A program made the position numbers. Shown here one piece after another: positions 21,001 through 30,000 of a DNA stretch of 64,000 nucleotides (position 1 is the first letter of the stretch; each line of letters begins with the position of its first letter). Location of the stretch: contig CM074511.1 of NCBI GenBank assembly GCA_037379345.1, positions 48,428,862 through 48,492,861 of the forward strand. Direction: 5' to 3'. The stretch comes from Perna viridis (taxonomy: Eukaryota).

Positions 21001-24000
21001 TTTGTTGTATAAAAAATGTGTTAGATAAAAAAAAGCGGGAATGAAATCAAGAGGGTCCAGCCTACAAGCATCTGTAGTATTTTTAGAAGCCTAAGAATCC
21101 TACATGCTTTCAGAGTATACAACTGTCAAATAAATAGATAAATCACTAGTGTTACCTGACACTAAAACGTAAACCAATCATCAAATGGAAGATTGTATCC
21201 TAAAAGGTATACCGGAATAAAATGCTATCTATATCATCTGAGAGTACTTAGTAGTTACCTTCTTTACTGAAGCTGGACCGTGAGTGAGCTGGAGCATTCT
21301 GCACCATGATTGGTTTTACACTTTTACGCTGGGGAACTGTTGTTGAACTACTAGAGGATGACACCATTGATACACTTTTGCCTGTAACATTTTGAATACC
21401 ATTGGCACTATTAGATCCTGAGTTTTTCTGGGCATTAGGGCTCCAGATTGTACCCATAGCAATTAAATCATCAGATTCTCTACCTATAATGGAAATAGCG
21501 CAAGTGTGAGTAGTAATGTGGCATTTGACAGATGACGTCATTAAGACCTTACTTTAATTGGTTCCCATATAGCACAGTAATATAATTTTTGGGAGTGAAT
21601 TTGTAATTCAATGGCAAGGCATCCTAAAACCCATAATTTCTTCAAATACTGATTGAAAAAAATTAATAAGGGAATTTTTCTATTGCCAACTAAGGACAAC
21701 AGTTGTTGGTTTCCTAGGTGATGATTCTTCTACTACATTCAGATATCTATATGGCTAAAATATCACAACAGAAACGAAACAAAGAACTGATAAAACTTTG
21801 GTTAACCTATATCTTCTTCTCTGTTCTACTATACCATATAGAAAATCCATAAAAAAGCAGGTATAAATAGATTTATTTTGACCTAATTGAAATCTACCCA
21901 TAAATAAATGATTAAAACTGAGGGTAACTCTCTGTTTTTACCTGACAATGATGATTAAAATAAAATTCAATTAAGCTGGGTCTAGAGACTGTGTCACATC
22001 GACTTATTTATTTCCTGCAGCATCAAAATAGTAGAATTATTTGAACTTTATCTTAAATGGAGTTATAGTGCTGTAAGTTTATCTATAATCGAATAGATTT
22101 CTTTATACCATTAAATAAAACAACAACTGCATTAGTAGGTGTTATGACTTTATTTCTTTTAACAAAAAAAAATCTTATTGCTTAATATCACATGGGAGAA
22201 GGTCATACGATGCCAAGTTGAAAGTAGAAAGTTTTTCGTTTTCTTCTTTTCATCAAACTACCATAGAAGTTCTCCCAATAGGACTCTTACACATGATCAC
22301 AGATTAGTTCAATTATCTACTCTTACACATGATCACAGATTAGTTCAATTATCTACCCTGGCAAGCATACAACAATATTCTCACCCTTAATGCATGTAAA
22401 CATAAAATGCCCAACCTTCATATAAATTTTATCAAGACCTTTTTAATAGTTTAAGCACAGCAATGTTTACAATTGTACATTGATGAACTGACAGACAGAC
22501 GTGTGGAGATGTCAAATGACTTTCAGGTATACAATGTTCAGTTTTACATTTATTTCTATGTAATTAGCTTAGTCATTGTAGCCTTATATTAAGTGATGTA
22601 CTTCAAAAGCCTTGCCCCCATGCAGGTCCGGGTGTCAGGATAATAGGCCCACAGCAGTGCTAAGCTTGTTGTAAAAGGCGACTAAATAGTATCTCAGAAC
22701 CCTGGCCAGAGCTACTGGGTTGTGTGCCCTAGGTGGTGGAATGGGGTACCCCTGGGATGTTACATGCTGGGGTCGTCAGGCCATAATACGGAAAACCCGA
22801 CTGCAAACCATAGTCATGCAACGTGTTGTGAAAAATGCCACGTTTCTCGCACATTAAAGAACTCTTCTGTGGTATTCTCTCGGAGTAGGAACCATAGGGC
22901 TCTATCACAGGAGTCTAAATTGCCTGACCCTACCCACCTCTCCCTATTTCCAGTAGCATTCAAAATTTGTCGACCCATTATCCTTGTGTATCATCCCATT
23001 TATCATTTCATGTTCATTGCCTGAATATAGTTGAAATATTGCTGCTCAGGTGTTAAAGCCCAACAATCAATCAATCAATCATTAAAAGCCTTGTAGTATA
23101 CATATAATTTTTTTAGAGAAGGCATGCAGTATGAATTTTCATCGACTAGAAAGTAGTTTTTCTAAAAAAGTAAGCTTTAAAAAAGTGTCCAGGTAGCACA
23201 ATATCAATATACAACTGAACACCTACACACTATTTTTAAACAGCTGCAATTTCAAGGTAAAAGTGTCTACCAAACATTTTAATTAATCATTGTTAGTGAA
23301 GGAACACTTGTGAAAGGTATATTTTTATACTTTAACCTTTTAAACTCTCTTTACCTATTTTAAAACTTGTTAAAAACTTACTGTGTCTTATATTATAGGC
23401 CAAAAGGTGCCTAACAACACTACTGTTAATTCTTGGCAGTTTGTCCCGACCTTCTGTGTCCATTATTTTAAATCGTACATTACTATTATCTTTCCATGGC
23501 GTCCACATAATATCATTCAAAATTAAGTTTTTCATTTTTCAGAAACAAAACCGATTCTTTTGGTGTCATGAAGGTATAAAAAACACAAGAAGTTTGGAGA
23601 AAATCATTCCAATTAAGAAATTCTGTAACTAAATCCGTCATGTTGATTAAATAAAATCCCAATTATTCAGCCACAGTCCATTGTTATTATGTGAATAGTA
23701 TCGCATAAAAATAATCAATACCCAGAATGCATCAGAGTGATTAAAACAACAGATAATGTTACATATAAATGATAAATAATGGAGATCCATTATGACAAGG
23801 GAATCAATCTAACACAGAGTTTTATAGCCATTGAAGGATTTCTGTATTTGCTCCGTTATTACAGAAGCCACTTTCTATGGCCATCACAATCTGCCATCGA
23901 CTTTGATTATTTATAAGTATTATTACCTCTATGTATGAAGAACTTGAATGTTGAAATACCAAGAGGAAAAGGTCGTGACTTCTAGGATAAATCAAGACTG

Positions 24001-27000: not shown

Positions 27001-30000
27001 AGACGAAACCCTTTAAAAATTAGGTCTATAGCAGCACAGCTTTCCTTGTGTTCCCTAATAGCATACGTAAAGTGGCTTGTGGCTGTCATATTTTTTTTAA
27101 GTGCATATGAACACAACAAAAATTGATGTGTTACTACAGATTGTAGGAGAAGAGACATACAATCTAGTCACACAGGAATGGAAGAGGATATAATGAGAAT
27201 TCAAGACCCCTCCTGAGTATACAATAACTGGAAGAATGTCTATACTTTGTCCTTGTTCTAAGAGTGTCATTCTGTGGTGTAATCATATCATAAATCTTCA
27301 CAAGCACATTGTATATTTAATAAATAATCTGAAAAGCTAGACCTTAAAATTTATACCATCAAATGTGTTTGTTTAGAAATTAAAAGTTTTAATTTAAAAT
27401 TGAATATAAAAGTTTAAATAACAGTTTATCATTTTCATTTATCACACCAATAAATTCTGAAGTGTGAGTAGCAAAATACTTAGGTTCCGTTAGGTAAAGC
27501 TCAAAAGACTTAATTAAACAGTCCTATAAAGTAACAGCTTTGAAGTATTCATTAGCTTCTTGGATACTGATTATACAAAAGTCTTCAATAATCACTTTCT
27601 TTTTATACTTATTTTTATTAGATCACTTATTCTTCTTTAAGTGATCTTTCTAACAGTGTGAAGAAATTTAACAGACACACAGACCTAAATCATAGACACA
27701 TGCACTGTATGGCATGATCATGTGATGATATAATATACAGACCTTGATGTTAACTAGTCCATGGCATGTCACAATTGGGCTGGGCCAAGGTTTTAAGCCA
27801 ACCAAATATGTGGCATGATCATGTGATATTATCAGTTTTAGGGTATTTCAAACCTGCATAAAATGATAACCTACCTACATAAGGTAAAGCTTGGAGTTCT
27901 AAAGAGATTCAGTACTGTATACAAAACCAATTCAGATATTTTGCAAAGGCTTCTGCAAAACCTTATAACTTCTAAATGGAAAGTCAATTAAATTCTTATT
28001 GTCTTTGATTGCTAAGGGATTCAATAATCAAAGTTCTAGGTATTTCATGGCATTCCTGACAGCCCAACATTTACAGACAGGGTATACCTATATCACAAGA
28101 TCATCTGAACTCCAGTAAAAAGATAAATATAATGTAACTCAATCATGTACTATATATAACATTTGGTAGGAAGTTATCAATCGTAGCAGGTTCACTAGTT
28201 CATATAAAAAACTTACCAGAATAAGAATTATTCATAACCAGATTTTAAATGTATAAAGTGTTACATCACTAATAAAATAAATACAACTTGTACTGAACAA
28301 CAAAGTTTTCAATAGGTCAAAGTTAAATATTGAATTTAAAAGTGATAATTCTAAGTATTGAATTCAAGCCAGGAGAAAATTTGTTTGCCTAATCCAAAAC
28401 TAAAGAATCTCATCTTATCAACCTGCATTGGCCATGTTTAAAGTTCCTTCATAGATTTGTGCATGTTACTAAGGACTTACTACTGTGAGAGAATAGTAAC
28501 AGCATATAACATCTACTGCTAAGTTGACCCTGACAATGTCAAACATACCTTTTTCTATTGATAATGATTTTCTAGAACTGTTTTTGCTGAGAGGGCGCCT
28601 GTTGTTGTAGTCGACTAGGTTATTAGAACTGTGGCGGTCTTTCTCCTTACTGTATTCAATAAAGCTGTTTTGTTTGATTTCATCCAGTTGGGGAGAATTC
28701 CGAACTTCGTTTCCATACAATATATCTGGGTTGGAATATGGAACCGTTGGCGTACTCGAAGAACTGCAAAGAGACAAAATTATTTGAATTATAGTTGAAA
28801 CAAACAAAACCAATCAATATTACAGGCAAATTGAAATACAACACTAACATAGAAATAGAATTGAAAAAAAACAGTCAATGGAGGCATTCACAGATCACTG
28901 GGTCTGCCTTGGGTTTAATCTAAATAGTAACAGTACCCTGGGTCATTGATTCCTAATATCATCTAGGCTAAAAATCGTAAAAGTCAAGATTTAAAAGAAA
29001 TGGACTCTGTATAATATACTTGGAGTTAATTATACCCTTAGAAAAGTAGGGACAAAAAAGTAATAACTAAATCAATAAATATGTAGAACATTTCTTTTAA
29101 TGTGTAAAAACTTAAAAGATACATAATACAGATACTTAAACTTAATTCAAAGTAAATAAAATATGGTTAACAAAGATACAAGTATTGCATAAGTCAATAA
29201 TCAAATGTATTTAAAGAAGACATTCAGCTTTTAGTGGGAAAATCATTCATAAATCAGGGTTTGACACTAAACTAATCTTGCAAGGTAGCCCACATGACTC
29301 TTTGATAGATAAACATTAGGTAGTCCTGAAATTAATTTTGCAGTCTCCTGTTCTTTATAGGGCTAATGAAATTTTAAGAATTAATTTAGGTAGCCTAAAG
29401 GACCACCAACTGAAATATAAAGATTGTCCTTAAGTAACAATATCCCTAATATATTCATATTGGGTAATTGAAATTTAGCTTTGGAATTGCAGAAGCTACT
29501 CATTACTGTCTGCAACAAGGGAAGAGTTTGTGTTTCTATTCCAGCTGCAACTAATATCAAAACAGCTCTCACACATCAAAGCAAACCTAATTAATGTATG
29601 ATAGTACTTACTTAATGTACACTAAGCTGCATTTTTAAAGTAAAGTTTTAAGCTTTCTCAGATTCAAAATACTGTGAAAGTACTTAAATTCGTGGATACC
29701 AATTTTTGTGGATTAGGGACGAAACACAAGTTCGTGGATTCTTGAATCTGTGTTTTTGAGGTTTTCAGTATACACACAAATGGGATTCTCTTTTTCGTTG
29801 GGAACCAAATTTCGTGGTTTAGCCTACCCACAAACAACAGTTCTTTCACAGTAGCTATATTTGTTTTTCATTAGCTATTTAATTAAGACATTACAACTTG
29901 TGACTTCTGTTTAACAGAGAAACAACAGTACTCATGTCAATAATTTTAATAAATTCTTTATTGTAAACTGTAAAGAAACATTACATCAATAATTTTTTAA

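What the first reader, a model, noticed from the sequence alone, without database searches (positions are those of the whole stretch)
23355..28235. Nested internal start exons switch to phase 1 to match downstream constant exons
Seen: inside the phase-1 introns, several ATG-to-donor segments end in phase 1 rather than 2. These are 28235-28217 (MNNSYS, to C2), 25308-25245 (21 aa), 24956-24950 (MD) and 23535-23355 (60 aa, containing KLPRI), the last three to C3. The phase tracks the local acceptor, an internal control for the variable-exon model. Inference: internal promoters yield progressively shorter isoforms that keep the conserved C-terminal motif, so both N-terminal identity and linker length vary.
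Basis: partly seen in the sequence, partly recalled or inferred. Interest (0 to 1): 0.7.

Follow-up and report, generated by a model that had tools for sequence, protein, structure and literature searches.

The report
Alternative in-frame exons, not internal starts
Two of the four proposed internal start exons of this mussel gene are conserved alternative coding exons that change the length of a protein linker, and the other two look like chance, so this is ordinary alternative splicing.

Summary
The window carries, on the minus strand, a mussel gene of the uncharacterised DUF5537 family. It has at least five alternative 5' coding exons (all phase 2), then constant exons C1, C2, C3 and C4.

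- **25308-25245:** its last 18 nt (25262-25245) are a cassette microexon with its own acceptor. It encodes the six residues that two Mytilus californianus isoforms carry between C2 and C3.
- **23535-23355:** it holds a conserved coding block, 23466-23380. This block matches a 27-residue insert at the same junction in one Mytilus edulis model, with 21 identities. The likely donor is 23382, not 23355. Cassette or first-exon use is unresolved here: the orthologous acceptor reads AA, not AG, and the alternative acceptors are weak.
- **28235-28217 and 24956-24950:** no support.

Phase-1 ATG-open segments are nominally enriched at consensus-like (GTRAG) donors: 8 of 10 against about 2.5 expected. 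After removing the two conserved exons and collapsing a tandem duplicate, 5 of 7 remain (P 0.03, 0.09 after correction).

None of 29 spliced relatives' proteins starts at C2 or C3. Internal promoters are not supported. Variable linker length is supported, through splicing. No RNA data could be checked.

The parts
28549..28763 (-). Constant exon C1. The acceptor is phase 2 and the donor is phase 1.
   Evidence: tblastn of relatives' proteins gives 82-86% identity over the aligned pieces. Splice sites ttgcag|TTC and AAG|gtatgt.
25994..26146 (-). Constant exon C2 (phase 1 in, phase 1 out). Only the long form is possible here. The Mytilus short-form internal donor has no GT counterpart in the window.
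   Evidence: Reading of the sequence.
25245..25262 (-). 18-nt cassette microexon (phase 1 to phase 1).
   Evidence: It encodes the same six residues that P0003 and P0004 (M. californianus isoforms X9 and X7) carry between C2 and C3. That peptide has one exact hit in the six frames of the 64-kb window. Acceptor ttctgcag| has 12 of 20 pyrimidines; donor ATG|gtaagg. By my criteria it is the only symmetric phase-1 open AG..GTRAG candidate in either intron, apart from a nested 12-nt variant.
23382..23466 (-). The donor ACA|GTAAGT is phase 1. The 5' boundary is unresolved: either the ATG at 23463 or a weak acceptor.
   Evidence: It aligns to the 27-residue insert of P0009 (M. edulis model) between C2 and C3, with 21 identities. 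The score is 100 against 37 +/- 3.2 (maximum 51) for 200 shuffled peptides. tblastn gives 19 of 24 identities, E 2.3e-7. Acceptor candidates have 7-8 of 20 pyrimidines, and the orthologous position reads AA.
21259..21483 (-). Constant exon C3 (phase 1 in, phase 1 out).
20374..20519 (-). Terminal coding exon C4 with the stop codon. It carries the conserved C-terminal motif.
   Evidence: Pfam DUF5537 at 30.6 bits against a cut-off of 28.4. 96-100% identity to mussel relatives. Boundaries.
28217..28235 (-). It is an ATG-to-GTAAGT stretch with no support as an exon.
   Evidence: The coordinates are verified. No relative has any insert or start at the C1-C2 junction. An in-frame stop lies five codons upstream and no phase-1 AG lies between, so a cassette reading is impossible.
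24950..24956 (-). It is 7 nt next to a T-rich low-complexity tract and has no support as an exon.
   Evidence: No relative carries a corresponding insert.
30318..30394 (-). Variable 5' coding exon (MDYHVRRY...), phase-2 donor.
31703..31818 (-). Variable 5' coding exon (MQDYDF...), phase-2 donor.
   Evidence: P0024.
35130..35326 (-). Variable 5' coding exon (MSDFERF...), phase-2 donor.
38184..38431 (-). Variable 5' coding exon (MEKSVMQW...), phase-2 donor.
   Evidence: P0022, a scallop protein.
51114..51223 (-). Variable 5' coding exon (MKARYRN...), phase-2 donor.

Best explanation
The 23355-28235 interval is the two phase-1 introns that flank constant exon C2 of a mussel DUF5537-family gene on the minus strand.

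The C2-C3 intron holds two conserved alternative coding exons, both phase 1 to phase 1, so including or skipping them keeps the reading frame:
- an 18-nt microexon (25262-25245);
- a roughly 72-84-nt exon that ends at 23382.

They lengthen a disordered linker just before the conserved start of C3. They look like 'ATG-to-donor in phase 1' segments because a real phase-1 exon is open in that frame, and an in-frame ATG happens to lie in or just upstream of it.

The remaining segments (28235-28217 and 24956-24950) are what AT-rich intron sequence gives by chance. About 30% of consensus-like donors in this window have an ATG-open stretch in any given phase.

**Shown:** coordinates, phases, the homology of the two exons to inserts in relatives' proteins, and splice-site quality.

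**Inferred:** that the exons are spliced in this species, and that their effect is on the linker.
For: - **Gene and exon map.**. The window's own C4 exon passes the Pfam DUF5537 cut-off at 30.6 against 28.4 bits.
- **Junction forms in relatives.** Of 24 relatives' proteins with both C2 and C3 anchors, 14 are mussel proteins. Those 14 split as 8 long, 3 short, 2 short plus the six-residue insert (P0003, P0004) and 1 short plus a 27-residue insert (P0009). The other 10 (8 scallop, 2 oyster) have a single form.
- **Microexon.** The six-residue peptide has one exact match in all six frames of the window, at 25263-25246. It is flanked by ctgcag| and |gtaagg in phase 1. All 60 permutations of the peptide together give 2 exact matches, the real one included.
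- **Longer exon.** The 27-residue insert aligns at 23466-23380 with 21 identities. The score is 100 against 37 +/- 3.2 for shuffled peptides. The similarity ends exactly at an ACA|GTAAGT phase-1 donor.
- **Introns are otherwise diverged.** Translated sequence next to C3 in a closer relative's unspliced ORF (P0015) shows no similarity to the window's, so introns are not generally conserved at this distance.
- **No internal starts in relatives.** 0 of 29 spliced relatives' proteins start at C2 or C3. The search with C4 covered lengths of 84-2000 aa and its shortest hit is 208 aa. The representative search with C3 added only unspliced ORF calls and two bacterial low-complexity hits.
- **Chance level.**
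- **The same pattern upstream.** The same analysis in the variable region gives 8, 9 and 15 of 36 GTRAG sites for phases 0, 1 and 2. Four of the 15 phase-2 hits are verified variable exons. The excess in both regions therefore traces to conserved exons.
Against: - For the longer exon, the window has AA, not AG, at the position of the M. edulis acceptor.
- The three in-frame alternative acceptors have only 7-8 of 20 pyrimidines, against 12-14 for the confirmed acceptors. Cassette use in this species is therefore doubtful.
- The ATG at 23463 is conserved in M. edulis, which fits first-exon use.
- The 27-residue insert is seen in only 1 of 30 proteins. That protein is an 'unnamed protein product' model whose RNA support I could not check.
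- After removing explained cases, phase-1 segments are still 5 of 7 (P 0.03 uncorrected), so a weak residual signal remains.
- No RNA-seq, CAGE or mussel genome DNA was available.
- Isoforms hidden inside 90% clusters could not be listed.
Confidence: 0.68

Rival explanations
1. All four segments are alternative first exons driven by internal promoters, and they give progressively shorter proteins that keep the C-terminal motif.
For: - All four are open ATG-to-GT segments in the phase required by the next acceptor.
- Phase-1 segments are nominally enriched at GTRAG donors: 8 of 10, and 6 of 1000 shuffles reach that.
- The gene does use many alternative 5' coding exons.
Against: - 0 of 29 spliced relatives' proteins start at C2 or C3.
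- The 25308 segment has a good acceptor 18 nt before its donor, and only those 18 nt correspond to the relatives' insert.
- The enrichment falls to 5 of 7 (corrected P 0.09) once conserved exons and a tandem duplicate are set aside.
- Phase-0 and phase-2 segments also exist.
- All five verified variable exons are found by homology at E <= 1.6e-6. MNNSYS and MD are too short to test that way.
Confidence: 0.04
2. Only the conserved KLPRI exon is an ATG-initiated alternative first exon in this species. It would start at 23463 (or at 23508 or 23535) and splice from 23382 to C3. It may be dual-use: a cassette in Mytilus and a first exon here.
For: - The orthologous acceptor position reads AA, and the other in-frame acceptors are weak, at 7-8 of 20 pyrimidines. 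That is the bottom quarter of all 372 AG sites in these introns.
- The ATG at 23463 aligns with the Met of the M. edulis insert, and similarity begins there.
- The ATG has A at -3 and G at +4.
Against: - No protein of about 150 aa beginning with this exon appears among hits of 84-2000 aa to C4 or of 131-2000 aa to C3.
- The one relative that has the exon uses it internally.
- No promoter evidence could be obtained.
Confidence: 0.18
3. None of the segments is used in this species. The two conserved blocks are relics of exons that are active only in Mytilus.
For: - The transcript-derived proteins from closer relatives (P0001, P0002, P0013, P0014) show only the plain C2-C3 junction.
- The KLPRI acceptor is missing.
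- The short C2 donor that accompanies both inserts in Mytilus is absent from the window.
Against: - Both blocks keep open frames, intact consensus donors and 78-100% residue identity to Mytilus, while neighbouring intron is not conserved.
- The microexon keeps a normal acceptor.
Confidence: 0.1

Closest known systems
Mytilus californianus LOC127699443 isoforms X7 and X9 (P0004, P0003)
   Same: They carry the same six-residue insert between C2 and C3 as window 25262-25245 encodes. They share the constant exons at 77-98% identity and the same architecture of variable 5' exons.
   Different: In Mytilus the insert follows the short form of C2. The window lacks that internal donor, so the microexon would follow the long form. 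I saw only the protein sequences and source names, not the transcript evidence.
Mytilus edulis 'unnamed protein product' model (P0009)
   Same: It has a 27-residue insert at the C2-C3 junction that is homologous to window 23466-23380, with 21 identities and the same phase-1 donor position.
   Different: The window's block is two residues longer and lacks the AG at the corresponding acceptor. The model is 1 of 30 proteins and its RNA support is unknown.
Animal microexons (3-27 nt), including the neuronal eMIC/Srrm-dependent programme
   Same: The exon is 18 nt, preserves the frame and lies in a disordered region. A TGC motif sits directly before the 3' splice site. [quoted passage not shown] The 3-27 nt size range is recalled, not taken from a call.
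   Different: Tissue specificity is unknown. The same TGCAG also precedes constitutive exons C1 and C2, so the motif does not discriminate here. Membership of that programme is untested.
Genes with arrays of alternative first exons joined to shared constant exons (for example UGT1A and clustered protocadherins; recalled, not from a call)
   Same: At least five alternative ATG-bearing 5' exons, all with phase-2 donors, join one constant acceptor, C1.
   Different: The segments of this finding lie downstream of C1. Where they are conserved, relatives use them as internal inserts rather than as starts.

Membership tests
DUF5537 (Pfam PF17690) protein family | Match to the Pfam profile at or above the gathering score of 28.4 bits. 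| tested here: met
   The window's C4 exon alone scores 30.6 bits, E 3.3e-7, over profile positions 116-157 of 160. Relative P0023 scores 31.6 bits. P0001, P0006 and P0007 score 22.5-27.1 bits, below the cut-off. C1, C2 and C3 alone give no match.
Cassette exon / microexon | An AG acceptor with a pyrimidine tract and a GT donor on both sides of the exon. | tested here: met
   For 25262-25245: ttctgcag| with 12 of 20 pyrimidines and |gtaagg. For the 23382 exon this is inconclusive: the donor GTAAGT is good, but the acceptors have 7-8 of 20 pyrimidines and the orthologous site reads AA.
Cassette exon / microexon | Length is a multiple of three, with the same phase on both sides, so that skipping and inclusion both keep the frame. 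| tested here: met
   The microexon is 18 nt, phase 1 to phase 1. The KLPRI block runs from any of the phase-1 acceptor candidates to 23382 and is also phase 1 to phase 1.
Cassette exon / microexon | Both the included and the skipped forms are observed. | tested here: inconclusive
   Both forms are seen among relatives' proteins. Of the 14 mussel proteins with both anchors, 2 carry the six-residue insert, 1 carries the 27-residue insert and 11 carry neither. This was not observed for the window's own species, because no transcript data were available.
Neuronal eMIC-dependent microexon programme | Neural-specific inclusion that depends on the Srrm eMIC domain. | not testable with these tools
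   Only a TGC next to the 3' splice site could be seen, and C1 and C2 have it too. The motif statement comes from PMC8797185 (passages read).
   All four segments meet this. However, about 30% of GTRAG donors in the window meet it in any given phase by chance.
   0 of 29 spliced relatives' proteins begin at C2 or C3 or with either conserved block. This was tested only in relatives and only on cluster representatives. Cluster members could not be listed.
   No expression data are on hand. No motif is shared between the upstream regions of the five verified variable exons and those of the candidates, judged by eye only.

The most novel reading that the evidence does not exclude
The KLPRI exon is a dual-mode exon whose first full codon is a conserved ATG. 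In Mytilus it is spliced in as a cassette. In this lineage, which has lost the AG acceptor, it would serve as an ATG-initiated internal first exon giving a protein of about 150 residues made of this exon plus C3 and C4. That would be a recent switch from cassette to alternative start. The weak residual excess of phase-1 ATG-open donors (5 of 7) could then hint at further unannotated phase-1 exons.
Probability: 0.15. Interest if true: 0.4.

Novelty: new member of a known kind. Interest (0 to 1): 0.2.

Why it matters
The result corrects a gene model. The linker between two constant exons of an uncharacterised, disordered, mollusc-wide protein is varied by in-frame alternative exons, one of them an 18-nt microexon conserved across mussel genera. 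It is not varied by nested promoters.

It also gives a caution for sequence-only scans. Agreement in phase between ATG-to-GT stretches and the next acceptor is a weak control in AT-rich introns. Here the agreement is driven by real cassette exons and by duplicated sequence.

The biological interest is modest. The family has no known function, and no paper in the searched library holds 'DUF5537' or 'PF17690'.

Tried and rejected
- **Search with the 60-aa ORF.** I searched the 5.8-billion-protein set for longer proteins. Six candidates shared words and none scored E <= 10. A 27-residue match cannot reach significance at that database size, so this says little.
- **Listing cluster members.** I did not repeat it.
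- **KLPRI as a copy of an N-terminal motif.** I tested whether the KLPRI block is a copy of the LKLP...LYAN motif of one N-terminal variable exon. The best z score is 2.2, and 9 to 84 of 300 shuffles reach the observed scores for the listed proteins. Rejected.
- **ESM Atlas look-alikes for the constant region.** The best feature score is 0.75 and all TM scores are <= 0.27 on a model with pLDDT 0.38. This is uninformative, and the protein appears disordered.
- **Pfam on other ORFs.** I scanned other ORFs of both strands inside 22686-25511, plus three ORFs elsewhere in the window. Nothing came near a cut-off.
- **Rfam on the whole window.** 0 matches.
- **Repeats.** Self-comparison of 21484-28548 against the window gave one hit, 22758-23078 against 41486-41809, which overlaps none of the four segments.
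- **C1 extension to the GTAAGT at 28481.** Rejected, because it would end in phase 0.
- **A 42-nt candidate cassette, 24991-24950, behind a long T tract.** No relative carries such an insert, and its pyrimidine count falls just under my threshold. It remains an unsupported lead.
- **Representative search with C3.** The new hits were P0031 (the window's own unspliced ORF), P0033 (another unspliced ORF) and two bacterial repeat proteins. The other listed hits were already known.

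
Full report
**What the window is**

The window is AT-rich (about 31% G+C) and contains no N. On its minus strand lies a gene whose exons match uncharacterised proteins of mussels at 77-98% identity to Mytilus species. One unnamed transcript-derived protein, P0001, matches at 96-98%. Scallops, oysters and gastropods match more distantly. The window's terminal coding exon alone passes the Pfam cut-off for DUF5537 (PF17690) at 30.6 against 28.4 bits. No paper in the searched library holds 'DUF5537' or 'PF17690'. 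The sequence is molluscan, not human.

**Gene map (minus strand)**

| Exon | Coordinates | Phase |
|---|---|---|
| Variable 5' coding exon | 51223-51114 | donor phase 2 |
| Variable 5' coding exon | 38431-38184 | donor phase 2 |
| Variable 5' coding exon | 35326-35130 | donor phase 2 |
| Variable 5' coding exon | 31818-31703 | donor phase 2 |
| Variable 5' coding exon | 30394-30318 | donor phase 2 |
| C1 | 28763-28549 | phase 2 in, phase 1 out |
| C2 | 26146-25994 | phase 1 in, phase 1 out |
| C3 | 21483-21259 | phase 1 in, phase 1 out |
| C4 | 20519-20374, with stop | phase 1 in |

Each of the five variable exons is homologous to the N-terminus of a relative's protein. Each ends in a GTAAGT or GTAAGG donor.

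**The observation**

Each starts with ATG, is open, has a length of 1 modulo 3 and is followed by GT.

**Is it more than chance?**

I counted, for every donor-like site in the two introns on the sense strand, whether an in-frame ATG precedes it without a stop. I did this for each of the three phases.

| Set | Sites | Phase 0 | Phase 1 | Phase 2 |
|---|---|---|---|---|
| GTRAG (GT, purine, AG), the two introns | 10 | 3 | 8 | 1 |
| GTRAG, rest of the minus strand | 75 | 22 | 20 | 26 |

- Dinucleotide-preserving shuffles give 2.5 +/- 1.6 per phase for GTRAG. Six of 1000 shuffles reach 8.
- The phase-1 excess is therefore nominally real, at P about 0.002 (0.005 after correcting for three phases).
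- It dissolves on inspection. Two of the eight are conserved exons (see below).
- Two more are the copies of a perfect 36-bp tandem duplication in which 'ATGT' precedes GTAAGA.
- One is open in all three phases.
- What remains is 5 of 7, P 0.03 uncorrected and 0.09 corrected.
- In the upstream variable region the same count gives 8, 9 and 15 of 36 sites for phases 0, 1 and 2. Four of the 15 phase-2 hits are verified variable exons.

In both regions the phase 'tracks the acceptor' mainly because real exons lie there.

**Segment 25308-25245**

Two M. californianus isoforms, X9 and X7 (P0003, P0004), carry a six-residue insert between the short form of C2 and C3. Window 25262-25245 encodes exactly that peptide in phase 1.

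- It is preceded by ttctgcag, with 12 of 20 pyrimidines against 12-14 for the confirmed acceptors. It is followed by gtaagg.
- The peptide occurs once in all six frames of the 64-kb window. All 60 permutations of it together occur twice, counting the real hit.
- With my criteria (at least 12 of 20 pyrimidines, a GTRAG donor, open, length a multiple of three), it is the only phase-1 cassette candidate in either intron, apart from a nested 12-nt variant.

The ATG at 25308 lies upstream of this acceptor, so it is in the intron.

**Segment 23535-23355**

One M. edulis model (P0009) has a 27-residue insert at the same junction.

- It aligns to window 23466-23380 with 21 identities and one two-residue gap. 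The score is 100, against 37 +/- 3.2 (maximum 51) for 200 shuffled peptides. tblastn gives 19 of 24 identities, E 2.3e-7.
- The similarity stops at ACA|GTAAGT, where the exon ends at 23382 in phase 1. Joining to C3 gives Ser there, as in P0009.
- The intron flank of C3 in a closer relative's unspliced ORF (P0015) bears no resemblance to the window's. Conservation of this block therefore indicates a coding exon.
- Its 5' end is unresolved. Where M. edulis must have its AG, two bases before a conserved ATG, the window reads AA.
- The three other in-frame phase-1 acceptors (exon starts 23489, 23453 and 23450) have 7-8 of 20 pyrimidines. That is the lowest quarter of the 372 AG sites in these introns.

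In this species the exon may therefore use a weak acceptor, start translation at 23463 as a first exon, or be inactive.

**Segments 28235-28217 and 24956-24950**

No relative has an insert or a start at the C1-C2 junction. None has an insert corresponding to the region near 24950. The first segment cannot be a cassette: an in-frame stop lies five codons upstream with no phase-1 AG in between. The second sits beside a long T tract. Both are too short for homology tests and are of the kind expected by chance.

**Internal starts in relatives**

- Of the 34 proteins fetched, 29 are spliced models or transcripts. All 29 have a variable N-terminal part joined to C1, and none begins at C2 or C3.
- The C4 search covered 84-2000 aa and its shortest hit is 208 aa. 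That hit is a model that skips C3.
- The C3 searches added three short proteins: P0015, P0031 and P0033.
- All three are unspliced ORF calls running into intron. P0031 is identical to the window's own ORF.
- The remaining two proteins are bacterial low-complexity hits.

These searches see only cluster representatives, and members could not be listed.

**Mechanism proposed**

Alternative splicing at the C2-C3 junction inserts 6 or about 24-28 residues into a disordered linker (Atlas model pLDDT 0.38) directly before the conserved start of C3. In Mytilus a 15-nt alternative donor inside C2 is involved as well, and one model skips C3. Inclusion and skipping both keep the frame because all the introns involved are phase 1. 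That the inserts modulate an interaction or modification of the neighbouring conserved motif is inference only. A TGC lies next to the microexon's 3' splice site, as reported for eMIC-dependent exons (PMC8797185, passages read). The same motif also precedes C1 and C2, so it proves nothing here.

**What stayed unchecked**

- No RNA-seq, CAGE or mussel genome DNA was available.
- Cluster members were unavailable.
- Paper supplements were not needed.

**Verdict**

The sequence observation is accurate. The internal-promoter reading is not supported. This is ordinary alternative splicing in an uncharacterised gene, with one small open question about the KLPRI exon's mode of use.

Noticed in passing
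window 22758-23078 and 41486-41809: An interspersed repeat of about 320-350 nt occurs in two introns of the same gene, in the same orientation. The copies are 74% identical over 347 columns. Plus-strand ORFs across both copies give similar peptides.
   Followed up: partly
window 22283-22356: A perfect 36-bp tandem duplication (2.1 copies, 100% matches) lies in the C2-C3 intron. It creates two identical 'ATGT|GTAAGA' pseudo start-exon hits.
   Followed up: yes
window 4004-5170 (+) and 61512-61895 (-): Two ORFs share a near-identical peptide stretch, seen in the ORF listing. They are probably copies of one mobile element. Pfam gave nothing near a cut-off for either.
   Followed up: partly
window 7596-8096 (+): A 166-aa open frame, rich in acidic and serine residues, lies on the opposite strand downstream of the gene. 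It may be an exon of a convergent neighbouring gene. It has no Pfam match.
   Followed up: partly
window 26010-25994 (end of C2): Mytilus proteins show a short and a long form of C2 that differ by five residues, which implies an internal alternative donor. The window has no GT at the corresponding place, so only the long form is possible here.
   Followed up: partly
window 51224-51230 and 38432-38440: Two of the five verified variable exons have 'ttcag' ending one or two bases before their ATG. They might be internal exons preceded by untranslated leader exons rather than true first exons.
   Followed up: no
window 21260-21550 (-): The public protein set holds a 97-aa protein (P0031) identical to the unspliced ORF across exon C3 plus its intron flanks. 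It is a naive ORF call, not an isoform.
   Followed up: yes
window 20519-20518 (C3-C4 junction): The codon split across the C3-C4 junction reads Ala in the window, where the mussel relatives have Val. One M. coruscus model (P0024) skips C3 altogether, and scallop proteins differ by three residues at this junction.
   Followed up: no
It is a possible further cassette, but no relative's protein carries it.
   Followed up: partly
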